From assembly GCA_964437455.1 (NCBI GenBank), contig CAYTGG010000002.1:1-51059 (forward strand): 51,059 nt of DNA, written 5' to 3'. A model generated the notes under the pieces. That model saw only the letters and a list, made by a program, of their open reading frames with translations. It was not told the DNA's origin and ran no database searches. The position numbers and the translations under genes were made by a program. This DNA is from Candidatus Woesearchaeota archaeon. Lineage in GTDB: Archaea > Nanobdellota > Nanobdellia > Pacearchaeales > GW2011-AR1. Below, one piece after another: positions 5,503 through 11,012 of this stretch; the first letter of the stretch is position 1; each line of letters starts with the position of its first letter.

Positions 5503-6135
5503 TTATTTTATTCCTAATTTTTCTAATTTATCCTGAACATGATTAAAAAGAGTTGATGAAATTAAAGGTTGATGGCTTCCTTGATGTATTTTTCCATCAA
5601 ATTTAGTTTTTCCTAAATAAGTCTGATTTTTAAGAATTTTTTTTAATCCATTAATAGAAAAATGATACTTTTTTGCTAATTGAGTAAGACTAATGTCTTG
5701 ATTAAGGAAATCTTGAAAAATTTCCTGGATAATATAAGAATCTTCTTTAGGAATAAGTTTCTTATTTTCTATCTTATAACCAGAAGGTGCTCTAGTTACA
5801 ATATTTCCATCTCGAGCTTTTTTATCCATTCCTTTTTTTGATCTTTTTGAAATTGATTTATTAGATTTTCTAAAAGTATCTAAAATTGTTCCATCTATTT
5901 TTTCTTCTAAAAAAATTTTAAATTCCTCTTCATTATCAGGCGCAAAATAGTGACAGATAGAGCAGAGAGTTATTAAATTATCTATGGAATCCTCACCTCC
6001 ATTAACCCTCATATTTATGTGGTGAACTTCTAATTCTTCTGAATTTCCTAAATAACCACACTTTTGACAACGAAATTTGTCTCTGTTAAAAACTTTTGAT
6101 TTTATTTTGGATGATGTTGAGATTCTTTTTGGCAT
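5503..6135 (-). CDS. HNH endonuclease fused to a 'Recombinase'-type DNA-binding domain (no resolvase catalytic domain)
   Basis: N-terminus CQKCGY...EVHHINMRVNGGEDSIDNLITLCSICH (HNH, two Cys pairs); C-terminus APSGYKIENKKLIPKEDSYIIQEIFQDF...LKNQTYLGK...HQPLISSTLFNHVQ resembles the domain following the catalytic domain of large serine recombinases. Confidence 0.7.
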   Translation of the reverse strand: MPKRISTSSKIKSKVFNRDKFRCQKCGYLGNSEELEVHHINMRVNGGEDSIDNLITLCSICHYFAPDNEEEFKIFLEEKIDGTILDTFRKSNKSISKRSKKGMDKKARDGNIVTRAPSGYKIENKKLIPKEDSYIIQEIFQDFLNQDISLTQLAKKYHFSINGLKKILKNQTYLGKTKFDGKIHQGSHQPLISSTLFNHVQDKLEKLGIK

Positions 6136-6137
6136 TT

Positions 6138-6965
6138 TTACAGATTATCTATAGGAGATTTTATTTTTTTTAATTCTTCTGTTGAGATGTGTGTATAAAT
6201 TTGTGTTGTTGATAAGTCAGCATGTCCAAGTAATTCCTGAATTTTTCTTATATCTGTTCCGTTTTCTAAAAGATGCGTGGCAAAGCTGTGTCTTAATGTA
6301 TGTGGAGAAACTTTTTTTTGAATATTTGCCTTTTTTGCTGAATTTCTAATAATCTTTTGTAAATTTCTGTCTGTGAGTTTTTCTTTTGGGCCTGAAAAGA
6401 GATATTTTTGGTTGTTTTCTGTTTGTTTTTTTGCTTGTTTTTTTAAAGATTTTAATAAAAAGACAGGGATATTAAATATTCTGTCTTTTCTTCCTTTTGC
6501 CTGACGCACATAACCAATCATTTCTTCAAAATTCAACTCATTAATTTTTAGATTTATCAGTTCTGAAACTCTAAAACCACAAGCATATATCATAGAGATC
6601 ATAAGCTTGCTTTTTTTTGTGGGTATAGAATTGAATAATCTTTTTATTTCTTCTTTTGTTAGAACAGCTGGAAATTTTCTATCTCTTTTTGGGCGTTTGA
6701 TATTTATTGTAATATCCTTTTGCAAAATTGTTGAGAAAGCATAACGAATTGCAGAAAGAAAAACAATAATTGTTGAAGATGATTTGTCTGTGAGTTTTTC
6801 AGCCATGTAGGATTTAACATCATCAATTGTTATTTCTTCTAGAGTTTTATTTAAAAAATTTAGAAGCTCCTGATTAGCCCTAAAGTAATTGCGAATAGTG
6901 TAATTTGAATTTTTGGAGATTTTTAGTTCTGTTTGAAGTTTTTGGAGGAAATCCTCTTTTTTCAT
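6138..6965 (-). CDS. xerA: tyrosine recombinase, XerA/XerC/XerD-like integrase
   Basis: SAM-like N-domain; catalytic region GFRVSEL...GKGRKDR...HTLRHSFATHLLENGTDIRKIQELLGHADLSTTQIYTH (R..H-x-x-R..H..Y); 2-nt gap to the HNH gene. Confidence 0.9.
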   Translation of the reverse strand: MKKEDFLQKLQTELKISKNSNYTIRNYFRANQELLNFLNKTLEEITIDDVKSYMAEKLTDKSSSTIIVFLSAIRYAFSTILQKDITINIKRPKRDRKFPAVLTKEEIKRLFNSIPTKKSKLMISMIYACGFRVSELINLKINELNFEEMIGYVRQAKGRKDRIFNIPVFLLKSLKKQAKKQTENNQKYLFSGPKEKLTDRNLQKIIRNSAKKANIQKKVSPHTLRHSFATHLLENGTDIRKIQELLGHADLSTTQIYTHISTEELKKIKSPIDNL

Positions 6966-7058: not shown

Positions 7059-7460
7059 TTATTCTAAACAATTTCCTATTAATTCATTTTCATCTAGATG
7101 ATAAACAGAATATCTAATATTACCCTGCTTTTCTTGAGTCACTTTTAGCTTGCCATCCTTTGTGCGCGAAGGTTGGCTTTGTTCATATAAACCATCACTA
7201 ACTCTTAAATCGTTTGCTCTTTCATAAAATCCCTTTTTAAAAAGCTCTTTATTTGAAACCTCTTTATAACTTTCAAAGAAAGGATTTGTAAGAACTTCTT
7301 TTCTTCGTTCATCTGTACTTAGATTTGTTAAATCTAACCTGTAAGAATTCTCTAACCATTCTAAAGAATGGACATAAATAAAAGTGTTACCTTTTTCAAA
7401 AACCAATCCTGATAAAGAATTACACATAATTTCAATAGGGCTTAACTTTTCTTCTTTCAT
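7059..7460 (-). CDS. hypothetical protein (133 aa, soluble)
   Basis: Clean ATG-to-stop ORF with local codon usage; no family recognised. Confidence 0.6.
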   Translation of the reverse strand: MKEEKLSPIEIMCNSLSGLVFEKGNTFIYVHSLEWLENSYRLDLTNLSTDERRKEVLTNPFFESYKEVSNKELFKKGFYERANDLRVSDGLYEQSQPSRTKDGKLKVTQEKQGNIRYSVYHLDENELIGNCLE

Positions 7461-7577
7461 TATTAAATTGAAATTTTCTTTATTTAAATAAATTATTATC
7501 TTTAAAATATATTTAGGATTATGTTTACTTAGATTACCTTAGTTAATAAATTAATTAATAATATTAATTAGTATCTC

Positions 7578-7856
7578 TTAATAACCATTTTCGTCCTTTA
7601 GATAATGAGAAGTAAGATATATTATAAATATACTTAAAAGAGTTATAAATAAAGAAGTTAAAATGCTTAAAGCTGAAGAATCTTTGATATTTGTAAAAAA
7701 TTTAACGATTGCTAAAGAAAGATCAAAAATTGTCTGACGCCATGTAAAAGCAATTGTGAATCCAAGAGTTACTATTATTAATGTTTTAATTTGTTTCTTA
7801 AATTCTTTCTGAAATCTCTTTCCTTTAATTAGGACATCAATCAATTTTTTTTTCAT
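7578..7856 (-). CDS. small 2-TM membrane protein, paralog of 25844..26110
   Basis: Basic N-terminus then GFTIAFTWRQ...; shares the pattern RF.K.FK..(I/L)......GFT(I/V)AF.WR and a second TM ending in YLK with the 25844 protein. Confidence 0.65.
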   Translation of the reverse strand: MKKKLIDVLIKGKRFQKEFKKQIKTLIIVTLGFTIAFTWRQTIFDLSLAIVKFFTNIKDSSALSILTSLFITLLSIFIIYLTSHYLKDENGY

Positions 7857-7956
7857 TAAAAAAATAAAAAGAGAAGTTTTTATAATTTTGGATTATATTA
7901 AAATTTTATATTTTATTTTAATAGGTTATTTCACTTAGGATAGCTTTGTGAATACT

Positions 7957-8020
7957 CTGTTTATTGGTGTTTGGGTTGTTTAGGGTTGTTTTAAACAGCT
8001 GTTTAAAGAGTTGTTTAAAG
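7957..8020. repeat. iteron-like block 1: six TGTTT(A/G/T) motifs at 8-13 bp spacing, including an 18-bp perfect palindrome TTTAAACAGCTGTTTAAA (7990-8007)
   Basis: ctgtttattggtgtttgggttgtttagggttgttttaaacagctgtttaaagagttgtttaaag; shares 17- and 18-nt exact segments with block 2. Confidence 0.8.
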
Positions 8021-8060
8021 AATTTTATATAATTTTATATAATTTTATATGATTTTATAG
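8021..8060. repeat. 10-bp tandem repeat AATTTTATAT x3 plus GATTTTATAG (AT-rich spacer between the iteron-like blocks)
   Basis: Read directly: aattttatat aattttatat aattttatat gattttatag. Confidence 0.9.
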
Positions 8061-8106
8061 TCGATTAAATATAATCTCTTGAAATTATTTTTCTTAAAAT
8101 ACTTAG

Positions 8107-8171
8107 AGGTTGTTTAGAGGTGTTTGGGTTGTTTAAGGCTGTTTATGGGTGTTTTAAACAGCTGTTTATAG
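8107..8171. repeat. iteron-like block 2: six TGTTT(A/G/T) motifs, with 14-bp palindrome TAAACAGCTGTTTA (8155-8168)
   Basis: ggttgtttagaggtgtttgggttgtttaaggctgtttatgggtgttttaaacagctgtttatag; GGTGTTTGGGTTGTTTA and GTTTTAAACAGCTGTTTA are identical to block 1. Confidence 0.8.
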
Positions 8172-8292
8172 TAAATTTTTAATATAAACAACCTGCTCTT
8201 TTTAGAATTTTAGAGTAGAATTATATAGGTAATGATAGGTTTTTCGACGGAAAAAACAAAATGTTTTTAAAGTAGGTTAAATAATAAATAAT

Positions 8293-8904
8293 ATGTTTTG
8301 GTTTTGGAAAAAGAGGGATATTGAAGAATTAAAAGAAGAAACAAAAAAGAGTTTTGATGCTGTTAAAAAAGATGTAGTCTCTGTAAATGGTTGGATTAGG
8401 CATCTAAATTCAGAAAAAGATCTTCAAAATAAAAATATTTCTGAAATAAAAGAAGATTTATCGTCGATAAAAGATGAAATTGAAAATTTGAAGAATGTTA
8501 TATCTGTTATGGGAAATTTAAAAGGTACTTATAATAAAAAACAAACAAACAAACAGCTGTTTAATAAACAAACAGCTGTTTATGCTGTTCAAACAGCTGT
8601 TCAAACAGCTGTTCAAACACCAAATTTAGACCAATTTTCTATTACAGAGAGAGCAATTATTTGGATATTATTAACTAGTGAAGTAAAGTTAAGTTATGAT
8701 GACTTAGCATCTATTCTAGGAAAAGAAAAAGCTACAATTAGAGGTCAAATTAATCATATAAAACAGAAAAGTGAGGGTTTAATAGAAGAAATAATAGAAA
8801 AAAACAATAAAAAAAGGGTATATATACCTGAAAATATCAAAGAAAAACTGTTAAAAAAGACAAAAGTGAGACTTAAGGGAAGTAAAAAAGAAGAAGAAAA
8901 ATAA
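8293..8904 (+). CDS. coiled-coil + low-complexity linker + C-terminal winged-helix (HTH) protein
   Basis: N-terminal heptad-like EIKEDLSSIKDEIENLKNV; linker with (TAVQ)3 encoded by a perfect 3x12-nt tandem at 8584-8619; C-terminus ITERAIIWILLTSEVKLSYDDLASILGKEKATIRGQINHIKQK is wHTH-like. Confidence 0.7.
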   Translation: MFWFWKKRDIEELKEETKKSFDAVKKDVVSVNGWIRHLNSEKDLQNKNISEIKEDLSSIKDEIENLKNVISVMGNLKGTYNKKQTNKQLFNKQTAVYAVQTAVQTAVQTPNLDQFSITERAIIWILLTSEVKLSYDDLASILGKEKATIRGQINHIKQKSEGLIEEIIEKNNKKRVYIPENIKEKLLKKTKVRLKGSKKEEEK

Positions 8905-8932
8905 AATAGAGTAAATGATCATAAAAAATAGG

Positions 8933-9003
8933 GTAAAAATAATGAAAAGTGAGGGAAAATAGGGTAAAAATAAAGTAAAAATAATGAAAAGTGAGGGAAA
9001 ATA
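8933..9003. repeat. 29-bp perfect direct repeat GTAAAAATAATGAAAAGTGAGGGAAAATA x2 (8933-8961, 8975-9003)
   Basis: Read directly, in the gap between the two convergent paralogs; GAAAAGTGAGGG also occurs inside the upstream CDS near 8765. Confidence 0.85.
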
Positions 9004-9101
9004 TAAAGAGTTTATAAAAGAAGTTTAGGAATAAGAAAGTAAATATTAGAGAATTTAAAAAATAAGAGAGAAGAGAATTAGTTAGTCGTTTAAGAGATTA
9101 A

Positions 9102-9746
<645 letters not shown>

Positions 9747-10988: not shown

Positions 10989-11012
10989 GACCCTATAGTT
11001 TCTCATGGAAAG
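10989..11012 (-). promoter_or_regulatory. ORB-like origin recognition box (inverted orientation, distal side of DUE)
   Basis: Reverse complement CTTTCCATGAGAAACTATAGGGTC aligns with the two boxes near orc1 (core TCCAT-K-AGAAA..T-W-TAGG-G) and resembles the archaeal ORB core TCCAnnGGAAA plus G-string. Confidence 0.6.

What the first reader, a model, noticed from the sequence alone, without database searches (positions are those of the whole stretch)
7957..8619. Iteron-like arrays around an AT-rich tandem repeat, sharing the palindrome AAACAGCTGTTT with the linker-coding region of the downstream wHTH gene
Seen in sequence: the 436-bp gap 7857-8292 is large for this compact genome. It holds two about 60-bp blocks (7957-8020, 8107-8171), each with six TGTTT(A/G/T) motifs at 8-13 bp spacing. 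The blocks share exact 17-nt and 18-nt segments. They flank a 10-bp tandem AATTTTATAT x4. Each block contains a palindrome centred on CAGCTG (18 bp at 7990-8007, 14 bp at 8155-8168). The same AAACAGCTGTT core recurs four more times inside the downstream CDS (8551, 8570, 8591, 8603), where it encodes the (TAVQ)n linker. Inference: iterons plus an AT-rich spacer next to a DNA-binding protein gene is the layout of plasmid or viral iteron origins, or of an autoregulated operator array. It lies only about 3 kb from the canonical ORB/cdc6 origin. Operator-like palindromes embedded in the regulator's own coding repeats are unusual.
Basis: partly seen in the sequence, partly recalled or inferred. Interest (0 to 1): 0.65.

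Follow-up and report, generated by a model that had tools for sequence, protein, structure and literature searches.

The report
Binding-site array written into regulator gene
A tiny (DPANN) archaeon keeps a cluster of short DNA motifs in front of, and inside the coding sequence of, an uncharacterised DNA-binding protein gene beside its replication origin; related species keep the same cluster, so it is most likely a binding platform through which the protein controls its own gene, not a plasmid or viral origin.

Summary
Two 64-65 bp blocks each carry six TGTTT units 9-13 bp apart and end in a CAGCTG-centred palindrome. The core AACAGCTGTT occurs six times in the 482-kb assembly, and all six are at this locus.

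The feature is conserved. In 74 orthologous loci the 450 bp upstream hold 7.3 TGTTT on average, against 1.7 in background. Spacing peaks at 10 and 13 bp.

The four dyads inside the gene are under nucleotide-level constraint. Rare codons are fixed. At four codons the third base stays T at 0.95-0.99 although the residue varies A/G/P. The peptide they encode is predicted disordered.

The gene is a single-copy core gene in a fixed cluster beside ORB/cdc6, so it is not mobile. The AT-rich tandem is not conserved. A TATA box 29 bp before the ATG implies a leaderless mRNA, which puts the upstream arrays outside the transcript.

Best reading (0.55): a multi-site operator or nucleoprotein platform for the locally encoded Lrs14/MarR-like winged-helix protein. 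An iteron origin is not supported. No binding or transcript data could be obtained.

The parts
7932..7949 (+). Box 1 (CACTTAGGATAGCTTTGT), a conserved element at the 5' edge of the control region. Family consensus is GTGCACTWAGGTTANCTTAGT.
   Evidence: Single copy in the genome. Present in 53 of 73 orthologous loci at a median of -277 from the ATG.
7957..8020 (+). Array A: six (R)GS-TGTTT-R units spaced 9-13 bp, containing the 18-bp palindrome TTTAAACAGCTGTTTAAA (7990-8007).
   Evidence: It is 88-89% identical to array B (families D2 and D4) and absent as a separate block in the same-genus relative.
8021..8059 (.). AT-rich tandem AATTTTATAT x3.9. It is specific to this genome and not part of the conserved element.
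   Evidence: No counterpart in the 24 orthologous upstream regions that were printed.
8107..8171 (+). Array B: six TGTTT units, ending in the 14-bp palindrome TAAACAGCTGTTTA (8155-8168). This is the block shared with the same-genus relative.
8240..8253 (+). Promoter-proximal CG box TTTTTCGACGGAAA, of the M2 type (TCGWCG).
   Evidence: A TSGWCG box lies at -75..-40 in 45 of 73 loci. Density is 1.9 per 600 bp upstream against 0.15 in background.
8254..8271 (+). A-rich BRE-like stretch plus TATA-like TTTTTAAA (8264-8271), 29 bp before the ATG. This implies a leaderless or nearly leaderless mRNA.
   Evidence: A TATA-like box starts at -28 to -30 in 57 of 73 loci, and exactly at -29 in 46. Placement of the transcription start is inferred from the usual archaeal TATA-to-start distance.
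8293..8904 (+). Gene for a 203-aa protein, here called ccwHTH1. It has an N-terminal MFxWFxxKK motif, a long helix (residues 4-77), a disordered segment (78-111), a winged helix-turn-helix (112-178) and a C-terminal helix (180-202).
   Evidence: ORF. AlphaFold2 model with mean pLDDT 84.9. Foldseek top matches are AbfR2/Lrs14-like, MepR/MarR and ST1889. More than 1900 unnamed homologues in Pacearchaeota/Woesearchaeota/Nanoarchaeota.
8458..8470 (.). M2 palindrome TTATCGTCGATAA inside the coding sequence (codons L56-K60).
   Evidence: TCG is used at codons 57 and 58 in 94% and 91% of orthologues, against 14% gene-wide. The middle base switches T/A and with it the residue S/T.
8551..8614 (.). Four AAACAGCTGTT(T/C) dyads inside the coding sequence (8551, 8570, 8591, 8603). 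The first is read in frame 0 (KQLF) and the others in frame +1 (QTAV). The region includes the 12-nt x3 tandem at 8584-8619.
   Evidence: Codon and third-base conservation.
8768..8995 (+). M3 motif AAAGTGAG x4 (8768 and 8863 in the coding sequence; 8946 and 8988 in the downstream intergenic repeats). Found on the + strand only.
   Evidence: These are the only four copies in the 51-kb window. Across 74 loci the density is 2.55/kb in the gene, 3.84/kb in the 300 bp downstream and 0.03/kb elsewhere.
9102..9746 (-). Convergent paralogue, here called ccwHTH2. Its linker is encoded by (TGTC)9.8 at 9450-9488, which reads as TGTYT-like half-sites on the + strand.
   Evidence: Pfam HTH_11, HTH_36 and HTH_24. 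Present in 78 of 80 loci. An (ACAG/ACAA)n-encoded linker occurs in most of the 40 orthologues printed, out of 70 detected, using the otherwise rare GAC, CAG and AAC codons.

Best explanation
The two blocks are the clade-specific upstream part of a conserved cis-acting DNA element made of TGTTT half-sites. These half-sites occur as direct repeats about one helical turn apart and as AAACA-SS-TGTTT dyads. The older part of the element lies inside the adjacent gene, in the DNA that encodes its disordered linker.

The most likely mechanism is as follows. Dimers of the locally encoded Lrs14/MarR-like winged-helix protein bind cooperatively to the upstream arrays (about -100 to -340) and to the four intragenic dyads (+259 to +322). 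The convergent paralogue may take part as well. The bound sites bracket a leaderless promoter, so the protein would set its own transcription by looping and/or by blocking elongation. Because the coding sequence must keep the sites, the linker peptide KQxF-NKQTxVY-xVQTxVQTxVQT is frozen as a by-product.

Shown here: conservation of the element, its near-uniqueness in each genome, the synonymous-site constraint, the fold of the protein and the position of the promoter. Inferred: that the sites are bound by protein, which protein binds them, and the regulatory outcome.
For: (1) The array is conserved with the gene. In 74 orthologous loci there are 7.3 TGTTT per 450 bp upstream against 1.66 in background, with spacing peaks at 10 bp (116 cases) and 13 bp (71). 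The dyad AACA-SS-TGTT occurs 1.2 times upstream and 2.7 times in the gene per locus, against 0.23 in about 6.5 kb of flank.
(2) The site is essentially unique per genome. In 31 relatives about 45 of about 62 AAACASSTGTTT sites lie at this gene, and the remainder equals the reversed-pattern control. In the window's own genome 6 of 7 lie here.
(3) The intragenic dyads are constrained at the nucleotide level. Q is CAA in 284 of 305 motif codons, T is ACA in 273 of 299, V is never GTA (0 of 297, against 205 of 791 elsewhere), A is GCT in 162 of 164 and G is GGT in 90 of 92. The rare codons CAG and CTG are used at 0.96 and 0.94 against 0.24 and 0.10 gene-wide. At codons 95, 98, 102 and 106 the residue varies (A/G/P) but the third base T is 0.95-0.99 identical, against 0.57 for variable codons elsewhere. 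For conserved residues the third-base identity is 0.89 against 0.66 (p = 1e-4). The motif is read in two different frames.
(4) The frozen peptide (residues 78-111) is predicted disordered, with pLDDT 44-56, between a confident helix and a confident winged-helix domain.
(5) The C-terminal domain has a DNA-binding winged-helix fold closest to AbfR2/Lrs14-like and MarR/MepR proteins.
(6) A TATA-like box at -29 in 46-57 of 73 loci places the arrays upstream of the transcript.
(7) A subfamily with a different recognition helix (VTVRRHINDIKK) carries a different palindrome, CGTTCATGAACG/TGAACGTTCA, at the same linker position. It occurs in several frames and uses rare codons, in 5 of 5 loci. The most distant relatives have no such palindrome.
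(8) Dyad centres (GC against GG/CC) correlate between upstream and intragenic copies (Spearman 0.38, p = 0.008, not corrected for phylogeny).
Against: The arrays do not overlap the TATA/BRE or the transcription start, where archaeal repressors usually act. Half-site centres in the dyad are only 5-7 bp apart, which is closer than the roughly 10 bp typical of MarR-type dimers. Twelve or more half-sites is many for simple autoregulation. Subfamilies outside this clade have the intragenic sites but no upstream array, so the upstream blocks are not essential to the family. The binder could be ccwHTH2, the 89-aa winged-helix protein or something else. The mapping between recognition helix and motif rests on about three lineages. 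Q-T and Q-S periodicity in all linkers leaves room for some protein-level selection.
Confidence: 0.55

Rival explanations
1. The element is an origin-proximal chromosome-organising or centromere-like platform. The arrays, the two linker-coding tracts and the bound coiled-coil winged-helix proteins would form one large nucleoprotein complex about 3 kb from oriC. This complex would mark, pair or tether the origin region, perhaps to the membrane through the conserved N-terminal MFxWFxxKK motif. Autoregulation would then be a side effect, as with ParR/parC or TubR/tubC.
For: There is one site per genome. The element has many phased direct repeats, like parC, which has two sets of five 11-bp iterons around a promoter (PMC2241845), and like the split tubC (PMC6009700). 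Its position relative to the PRC-barrel gene, oriC, cdc6 and PolD is fixed in 53-78 of 80 loci. TGTYT-like tracts also lie in the paralogue's linker about 900 bp further on. The aromatic-basic N-terminus is conserved across the family. Lrs14-type proteins act as nucleoid-associated and cell-cycle factors in Sulfolobales (PMC11841832, PMC12847825).
Against: No motor NTPase gene sits in the cluster; the ParA/MinD homologues are on another contig. Membrane binding by the N-terminus is pure inference. Conserved synteny may simply be inherited. Upstream arrays are missing in other subfamilies.
Confidence: 0.2
2. The element acts at the RNA level. The palindromes would be selected because the mRNA folds into hairpins in the linker-coding region, giving translational pausing or an RNA-binding site, or because an upstream transcript pairs with them.
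For: Region 8536-8625 folds at -30.6 kcal/mol with z = -7.7. The median z across 70 orthologues is -5.6. T-runs often follow the upstream arrays. The third motif, AAGTGAG, is strictly strand-specific.
Against: Central pairs are broken as G.G in 30-33 of 70 species and there are essentially no compensatory double changes. Upstream copies carry GG in 26 cases and CC in 5, which is the same sense as the coding copies and not the complement. The arrays lie upstream of a TATA box at -29 and so outside the mRNA. No Rfam family matches. The number and arrangement of units vary between genera as binding-site arrays do.
Confidence: 0.08
3. The arrays are a neutral by-product of repeat dynamics. Slippage and gene conversion of a 10-12-nt unit would spread it between the linker-coding tandem and the upstream DNA, with no function for the arrays.
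For: The 12-nt x3 tandem is perfect. Array A is a recent local duplicate of array B. The number of units varies from 2 to 19 among genera. Upstream units sometimes copy coding flanks, for example GCTGTTCAAACAG.
Against: Slippage homogenises copies within a genome. It does not explain identical synonymous choices across 74 species that share only about 65% protein identity, nor the confinement to one locus and the persistence across an order.
Confidence: 0.07
4. The element is a second replication origin of iteron type, or the origin of an integrated plasmid or virus.
For: In this genome the two repeat blocks flank an AT-rich tandem next to a gene for a DNA-binding protein. Recombinase genes lie 1-3 kb upstream.
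Against: The locus is a core, single-copy gene cluster with conserved synteny, and that synteny includes the Xer and HNH-recombinase genes. The AT-rich tandem is not conserved. No Rep_3 or other initiator domain is present. The repeat units are 10-13 bp. A separate ORB/cdc6 origin lies 3 kb away. GC skew shows no feature here.
Confidence: 0.03

Closest known systems
R1 parC/ParR (type II partition centromere that doubles as an operator)
   Same: Both have two sets of short direct repeats at about helical-turn spacing (parC: 2 x 5 repeats of 11 bp) upstream of the gene for the small dimeric DNA-binding protein that coats them cooperatively. In R1 the same sites serve autoregulation and a structural role (PMC2241845).
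   Different: ParR is a ribbon-helix-helix protein on a plasmid and has the ParM motor next to it. Here the protein is a winged helix with a coiled coil, the locus is chromosomal and next to oriC, no motor gene is adjacent, the arrays lie upstream of the promoter and do not flank it, and further sites lie inside the coding sequence.
TubR/tubC (type III partition)
   Same: A split array holds two kinds of short iterons. It is bound and spread over by the small DNA-binding protein (TubR) encoded next to it, and the complex covers part of the promoter (PMC6009700). That TubR has a winged-helix fold is from my own knowledge.
   Different: That system is phage- or plasmid-borne and has the TubZ GTPase. 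There is no sequence similarity and no intragenic sites.
Auxiliary intragenic operators and parS inside parB/spo0J (from my own knowledge, not tested here)
   Same: Binding sites for a DNA-binding protein lie inside coding DNA: lac O2 in lacZ, gal OI in galE, and a parS site inside spo0J near oriC. They act by looping, by nucleation or as a roadblock.
   Different: Those are single sites that fit within ordinary codon choice. Here an array of four dyads dictates about 25 codons of the binder's own gene, across an order of organisms, and a sister subfamily carries a different palindrome at the same place.
Lrs14 / MarR-type archaeal winged-helix proteins (AbfR2 6cmv, ST1889 2d1h, MepR)
   Same: The closest structural matches are to the C-terminal domain plus its terminal helix. 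Lrs14 proteins are reported to bind their own promoters and act as nucleoid-associated or cell-cycle factors (PMC11841832, PMC12847825).
   Different: There is no detectable sequence homology: no Pfam match above the cut-off and no PDB sequence match. This protein has an extra 77-residue N-terminal helix, an aromatic-basic N-terminus and a 34-residue disordered linker.

Membership tests
Iteron-type plasmid/viral replication origin (Rep_3/RepA-like) | An adjacent initiator gene with Rep-type tandem winged-helix domains | tested here: not met
   The Pfam scan finds no Rep family; the best match is a sub-threshold HTH_11. The model has a single winged-helix domain of Lrs14/MarR type.
Iteron-type plasmid/viral replication origin (Rep_3/RepA-like) | Location on a mobile or integrated replicon | tested here: not met
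   The gene is single-copy and present in 49 of 61 relatives, including 12 of 12 high-quality genomes. Its flanks are conserved in 53-78 of 80 loci.
Iteron-type plasmid/viral replication origin (Rep_3/RepA-like) | Iterons of about 17-22 bp next to a conserved AT-rich unwinding element | tested here: not met
   The units are 10-13 bp. The AT-rich tandem at 8021-8059 is absent in the same-genus relative and in other genera.
Archaeal ORB/Orc1-Cdc6 origin | ORB or mini-ORB boxes flanking an unwinding element next to cdc6 | tested here: not met
   ORB-like boxes are found only at 10999, 11350 and 11448 beside cdc6, and not within 7857-8292.
Autoregulatory operator of a winged-helix regulator (MarR/Lrs14-like) | A regulator with a winged-helix DNA-binding fold encoded next to the sites | tested here: met
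   AlphaFold2 gives pLDDT above 90 for residues 112-178. Foldseek matches AbfR2, MepR, MarR and SlyA.
Autoregulatory operator of a winged-helix regulator (MarR/Lrs14-like) | Dyad-symmetric sites in the regulator's own control region, conserved together with the gene | tested here: met
Autoregulatory operator of a winged-helix regulator (MarR/Lrs14-like) | Sites overlapping BRE/TATA or the transcription start (typical of archaeal repressors) | tested here: not met
   In this window the arrays span about -336 to -126 from the ATG, and the family medians for the outermost upstream TGTTT are -408 and -130. The TATA box is at -29. The intragenic dyads lie at +259 to +322.
Autoregulatory operator of a winged-helix regulator (MarR/Lrs14-like) | Demonstrated specific binding and an effect on transcription | not testable with these tools
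   This needs EMSA or footprinting and in vitro transcription.
Partition centromere (ParR/parC, TubR/tubC, ParB/parS, SegB) | An array of phased repeats, unique in the replicon, next to the gene of the centromere-binding protein | tested here: met
Partition centromere (ParR/parC, TubR/tubC, ParB/parS, SegB) | An adjacent motor NTPase gene (ParA/SegA, ParM or TubZ) | tested here: not met
   Matches to CbiA and AAA_31 occur only on contig C1 and not in this cluster. No such gene lies within 4 kb in the 80 loci examined for synteny.

The most novel reading that the evidence does not exclude
The two convergent coiled-coil winged-helix genes and their flanks form a roughly 1.6-kb origin-proximal, centromere-like scaffold specific to Nanoarchaeia. 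In this reading the DNA that encodes the disordered linkers has been taken over as arrays of half-sites: AAACAG/CTGTT in one gene, (ACAG)n in the paralogue, and CGTTCA/TGAACG in a sister subfamily. The linker peptides would then be passengers of the DNA code. The bound proteins would tether the oriC region, possibly to the membrane through the conserved N-terminal MFxWFxxKK motif, linking origin position to the neighbouring PRC-barrel gene; that this gene has a cell-division role is assumed, not tested.
Probability: 0.15. Interest if true: 0.85.

Novelty: new variant of a known kind. Interest (0 to 1): 0.62.

Why it matters
DPANN archaea are uncultivated, and how they regulate genes and handle their chromosome is almost unknown. 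This locus offers a concrete, testable pair: a conserved protein of unknown function and a probable DNA target. The pair sits beside the replication origin in an order-level clade, and weaker relatives of the protein family occur in 95 of 151 genomes sampled across the phylum.

It is also an unusually clean case of dual coding. About 25 codons of a gene appear to be fixed by a DNA-level function, and a sister subfamily has a different palindrome at the same place. The case warns that an invariant peptide in a disordered linker need not be a protein motif. It also gives a natural system for studying how binding-site and coding constraints evolve together.

All the tests need only recombinant protein and synthetic DNA.

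Tried and rejected
- An Rfam scan of 7400-9200 at E <= 10 gave only sub-threshold hairpin-like hits to unrelated families, so the region is not a known RNA.
- A PDB sequence search with the family profile returned nothing below E = 0.06.
- The GC-skew profile of the window shows no switch at 8 kb or 11 kb and is uninformative.
- The integrated-element idea (recombinases upstream, r-protein operon cut short) was rejected. The HNH-Recombinase gene is found upstream in 45 of 80 loci and Xer in 29 of 80, and the downstream cluster is present in 66-78 of 80.
- The RNA-pairing idea was tested on 70 orthologues and found no compensatory changes.
- A regulon was looked for. No excess of the dyad occurs outside this locus in 31 genomes.
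- I asked whether every coiled-coil winged-helix relative has linker palindromes. The three most distant (L108-L110) do not, so the trait is not an artefact of the architecture.
- Three literature searches found no description of this family or element.
Full report
THE OBSERVATION. The 436-bp gap 7857-8292 lies between a small two-helix membrane protein gene (DUF5654, minus strand) and ORF 8293..8904. It holds two blocks.
- Block A (7957-8020) has TGTTT at 7958, 7968, 7977, 7987, 8000 and 8012.
- Block B (8107-8171) has TGTTT at 8111, 8121, 8130, 8140, 8150 and 8163.

The blocks share exact runs of 17 and 19 nt and are 88-89% identical overall. Each ends in a perfect palindrome: 18 bp at 7990-8007 and 14 bp at 8155-8168. 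AATTTTATAT x3.9 lies between them. The core AAACAGCTGTT(T/C) recurs at 8551, 8570, 8591 and 8603 inside the gene. That is six matches in the window against 0.28 expected by chance. In the whole 482-kb, 26.7% G+C assembly, all six AACAGCTGTT lie here, as do six of seven AACA-SS-TGTT.

THE GENE IS NOT MOBILE. The 203-aa product has one copy in its own genome. It is found in 49 of 61 relatives, including 12 of 12 high-quality genomes. More than 1900 unnamed homologues come from Pacearchaeota, Woesearchaeota and Nanoarchaeota assemblies. A profile search finds matches in 95 of 151 genomes sampled across the phylum, and in roughly half of them two matches, adjacent where checked.

In 80 orthologous loci the neighbourhood is fixed:
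- the array and the gene;
- a convergent paralogue (78 of 80 loci);
- an 89-aa winged-helix gene (70);
- a 133-aa gene (68);
- a PRC-barrel gene (66);
- an intergenic region, then cdc6 (at least 53) and the PolD small subunit.

The HNH-Recombinase fusion (45 loci) and Xer (29 loci) lie upstream. ORB-like boxes flank an AT-rich repeat region directly before cdc6. The block is therefore an origin-proximal core cluster and not an integrated plasmid or virus.

THE ARRAY IS CONSERVED WITH THE GENE.
- In 74 loci the 450 bp upstream carry on average 7.3 TGTTT on the coding strand, against 1.66 in background.
- Spacing peaks are at 10 bp (116 cases), 13 bp (71) and 12 bp (25).
- The dyad AACA-SS-TGTT occurs 1.2 times upstream and 2.7 times in the gene per locus, against 0.23 in about 6.5 kb of flank.
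- The unit consensus is R-G-S-TGTTT-R.
- In whole genomes of 31 relatives, about 45 of about 62 AAACASSTGTTT sites fall at this gene or just upstream. The remainder matches the reversed-pattern control.

The upstream region has a common plan:
- box 1 (GTGCACTWAGGTTANCTTAGT; 53 of 73 loci, median position -277);
- TGTTT arrays, often on both sides of a TTATCG(W)CGATAA palindrome;
- frequently a T-run;
- a CG box (45 of 73 loci at -75 to -40);
- an A-rich stretch and a TATA-like TTTTTAAA starting at -28 to -30 (57 of 73 loci; exactly -29 in 46).

With the usual archaeal TATA-to-start distance, the mRNA is leaderless or nearly so. The arrays would then lie outside it. This step is an inference.

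The AT-rich tandem has no counterpart in the same-genus relative or in other genera. The same-genus relative has a single array block, so a separate array A is not shared within the genus, although arrays on both sides of the M2 palindrome recur in other genera.

THE INTRAGENIC SITES ARE CONSTRAINED AS DNA. The so-called linker is the most invariant part of the protein. Its codons are nearly invariant too.
- Inside the motif, Q is CAA in 284 of 305 codons and T is ACA in 273 of 299.
- V is GTT or GTC in 290 of 297 and never GTA, whereas GTA makes up 205 of 791 V codons elsewhere.
- A is GCT in 162 of 164 and G is GGT in 90 of 92.
- In the first dyad the rare codons CAG and CTG are used at 0.96 and 0.94, against 0.24 and 0.10 gene-wide.
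- At codons 95, 98, 102 and 106 the residue varies (A, G or P; the majority residue is present in 0.47-0.67 of sequences), yet the third base T is 0.95-0.99 identical. Variable codons elsewhere average 0.57.
- For conserved residues, third-base identity is 0.89 inside the motif and 0.66 outside (p = 1e-4).

The variable positions are exactly the two central bases of the dyad AAACA-SS-TGTT. The motif is read in frame 0 once (KQLF) and in frame +1 three times (QTAV). By contrast, invariant residues of the winged-helix domain have free third bases. AlphaFold2 predicts residues 78-111 as disordered, with pLDDT 44-56, between a confident helix (4-77) and a confident winged helix (112-178).

Two further nucleotide-level elements sit in the gene.
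- TTATCG(W)CGATAA lies at codons 56-60. TCG is used at 0.94 and 0.91 against 0.14 gene-wide, and the middle base toggles the residue between S and T.
- AAGTGAG lies at codons 159-161 and 191-193. AAA GTG is used at 1.0 against 0.23.

FAMILY COMPARISON. A subfamily with a different recognition helix (VTVRRHINDIKK against STIRGQINxIKQK) carries a different palindrome at the same linker position. It reads CGTTCATGAACG, TGAACGTTCA or TTGAACGCGTTCAA, with 6-11 half-sites at about +225 to +347. It appears in several reading frames and uses the rare TCG, TTC and AAC codons. This holds in five loci from different samples, and almost no copies occur elsewhere in those loci. Two intermediate members carry AAACGGA-TG-TCCGTTT and a related repeat. 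The three most distant relatives have no linker palindromes. The paralogue's linker is (ACAG/ACAA)n with rare GAC, CAG and AAC codons in most of the 40 orthologues printed, out of 70 detected. On the window's + strand this reads as TGTYT repeats. The intragenic arrays are therefore old and lineage-specific, and the upstream arrays are an addition in the clade of this window.

DNA OR RNA? The mRNA segment 8536-8625 can form two strong hairpins (-30.6 kcal/mol, z = -7.7). Across 70 orthologues, however, the central pairs are G.G in 30-33 species and compensatory changes are essentially absent. Upstream centres are GG in 26 cases and CC in 5, which is the same sense as the coding copies and not the complement. 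Rfam finds nothing. Together with the position upstream of the promoter and the helical-turn phasing, this favours sites for a DNA-binding protein. Centre composition correlates between upstream and coding copies (Spearman 0.38, p = 0.008, not corrected for phylogeny).

WHICH PROTEIN? The C-terminal domain plus terminal helix is structurally closest to AbfR2 (Lrs14-like), ST1889 and MepR/MarR/SlyA. There is no sequence-level match to Pfam or to PDB entries. The gene product is the obvious candidate. The reasons are co-location in every genome, sites inside its own gene, and a different motif where the recognition helix differs. The paralogue or the 89-aa winged-helix protein cannot be excluded.

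MECHANISM. I favour cooperative binding to the upstream arrays and the intragenic dyads, which bracket a leaderless promoter. This would give autoregulation by looping and/or roadblock (confidence 0.55). The number of half-sites, the single site per genome and the fixed place beside oriC keep a structural, centromere-like role open (0.2). That role would resemble parC/ParR (PMC2241845) and tubC/TubR (PMC6009700). No motor gene is adjacent. A second origin (0.03), an RNA element (0.08) and neutral repeat dynamics (0.07) are less likely, for the reasons given under the rival explanations.

LIMITS. There are no binding or expression data. The organism is known only from metagenome assemblies. The statistics across orthologues are not corrected for shared ancestry. 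The half-site spacing of 5-7 bp in the dyad is unusual for MarR-type dimers.

EARLIER SCAN NOTES. First readers reported the same array in several other genomes, and one follow-up agent reached a similar reading. I treated these as leads only and derived all the numbers above independently.

Noticed in passing
window 8768-8995; loci L021-L100 and L101-L107: AAGTGAG (consensus AAAAGTGAGRGTT) is a third motif specific to this locus. It occurs at two fixed places in the 3' half of the gene (K-S-E and K-V-R codons, and overlapping the stop codon in some lineages) and as 1-6 copies in the 300-700 bp downstream. It is always on the coding strand. Density is 2.6-3.8 per kb against 0.03 per kb elsewhere. 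Unlike the TGTTT motif it is shared by the distant subfamily. Its function is unknown; a 3'-end RNA signal or a second binding array are possibilities.
   Followed up: partly
window 8458-8470 and 8240-8253; G000 C1:79713, C4:25326, C4:33355, C15:12615: The CG-containing palindrome TTATCG(W)CGATAA, or the TTCGACGGAA box, occurs upstream of the gene, next to its TATA box and inside the coding sequence (rare TCG TCG codons). In many relatives it also lies inside the convergent paralogue's coding sequence. About ten TCGWCGR sites exist in this CG-poor genome, several of them in AT-rich, apparently intergenic stretches. This may be the site of a second regulator with a small regulon.
   Followed up: partly
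window 9450-9488 (gene 9102..9746, minus strand): The paralogue's linker is a pure tetranucleotide tract, (TGTC)9.8, encoding TDRQ repeats. The tract is kept as (ACAG/ACAA)n in most of the orthologues printed, and is pure and 39 nt long in several. Gain or loss of one unit would shift the frame before the winged-helix domain, so phase variation is conceivable. The tract also resembles the TGTTT half-site.
   Followed up: partly
window 7932-7949: Box 1 (GTGCACTWAGGTTANCTTAGT) is a single-copy element conserved in 53 of 73 loci at the far edge of the control region. It has partial dyad symmetry (CACTWAG/CTWAGTG), and no TATA-like box is consistently found upstream of it. Its role is unknown.
   Followed up: partly
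window 8293-8320 (protein residues 1-9): The N-terminus MF(G)WFxxKK is conserved across the whole family, including distant subfamilies, but is absent from the convergent paralogue. It looks like an aromatic-basic amphipathic membrane-targeting or partner-binding motif. This is an inference only.
   Followed up: no
window 5503-6965: The HNH-'Recombinase'-domain fusion and the Xer-like tyrosine recombinase upstream are syntenic with this cluster in 45 and 29 of 80 relatives respectively. They therefore belong to the conserved origin-proximal neighbourhood and do not mark an insertion.
   Followed up: partly
window 8924-9003: A 42-bp tandem repeat (1.9 copies, 94% matches) in the convergent intergenic region carries two of the AAGTGAG copies and GGGTAAAAATAA sub-repeats.
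   Followed up: no
L101 2740-2850; L105; L106; L107; L102: Sister-subfamily genes encode their linkers with arrays of CGTTCA/TGAACG half-sites, giving palindromes of up to 16 bp (AACGTTCATGAACGTT). The resulting peptides are of the SFMNV or VERS type in different reading frames.
   Followed up: yes
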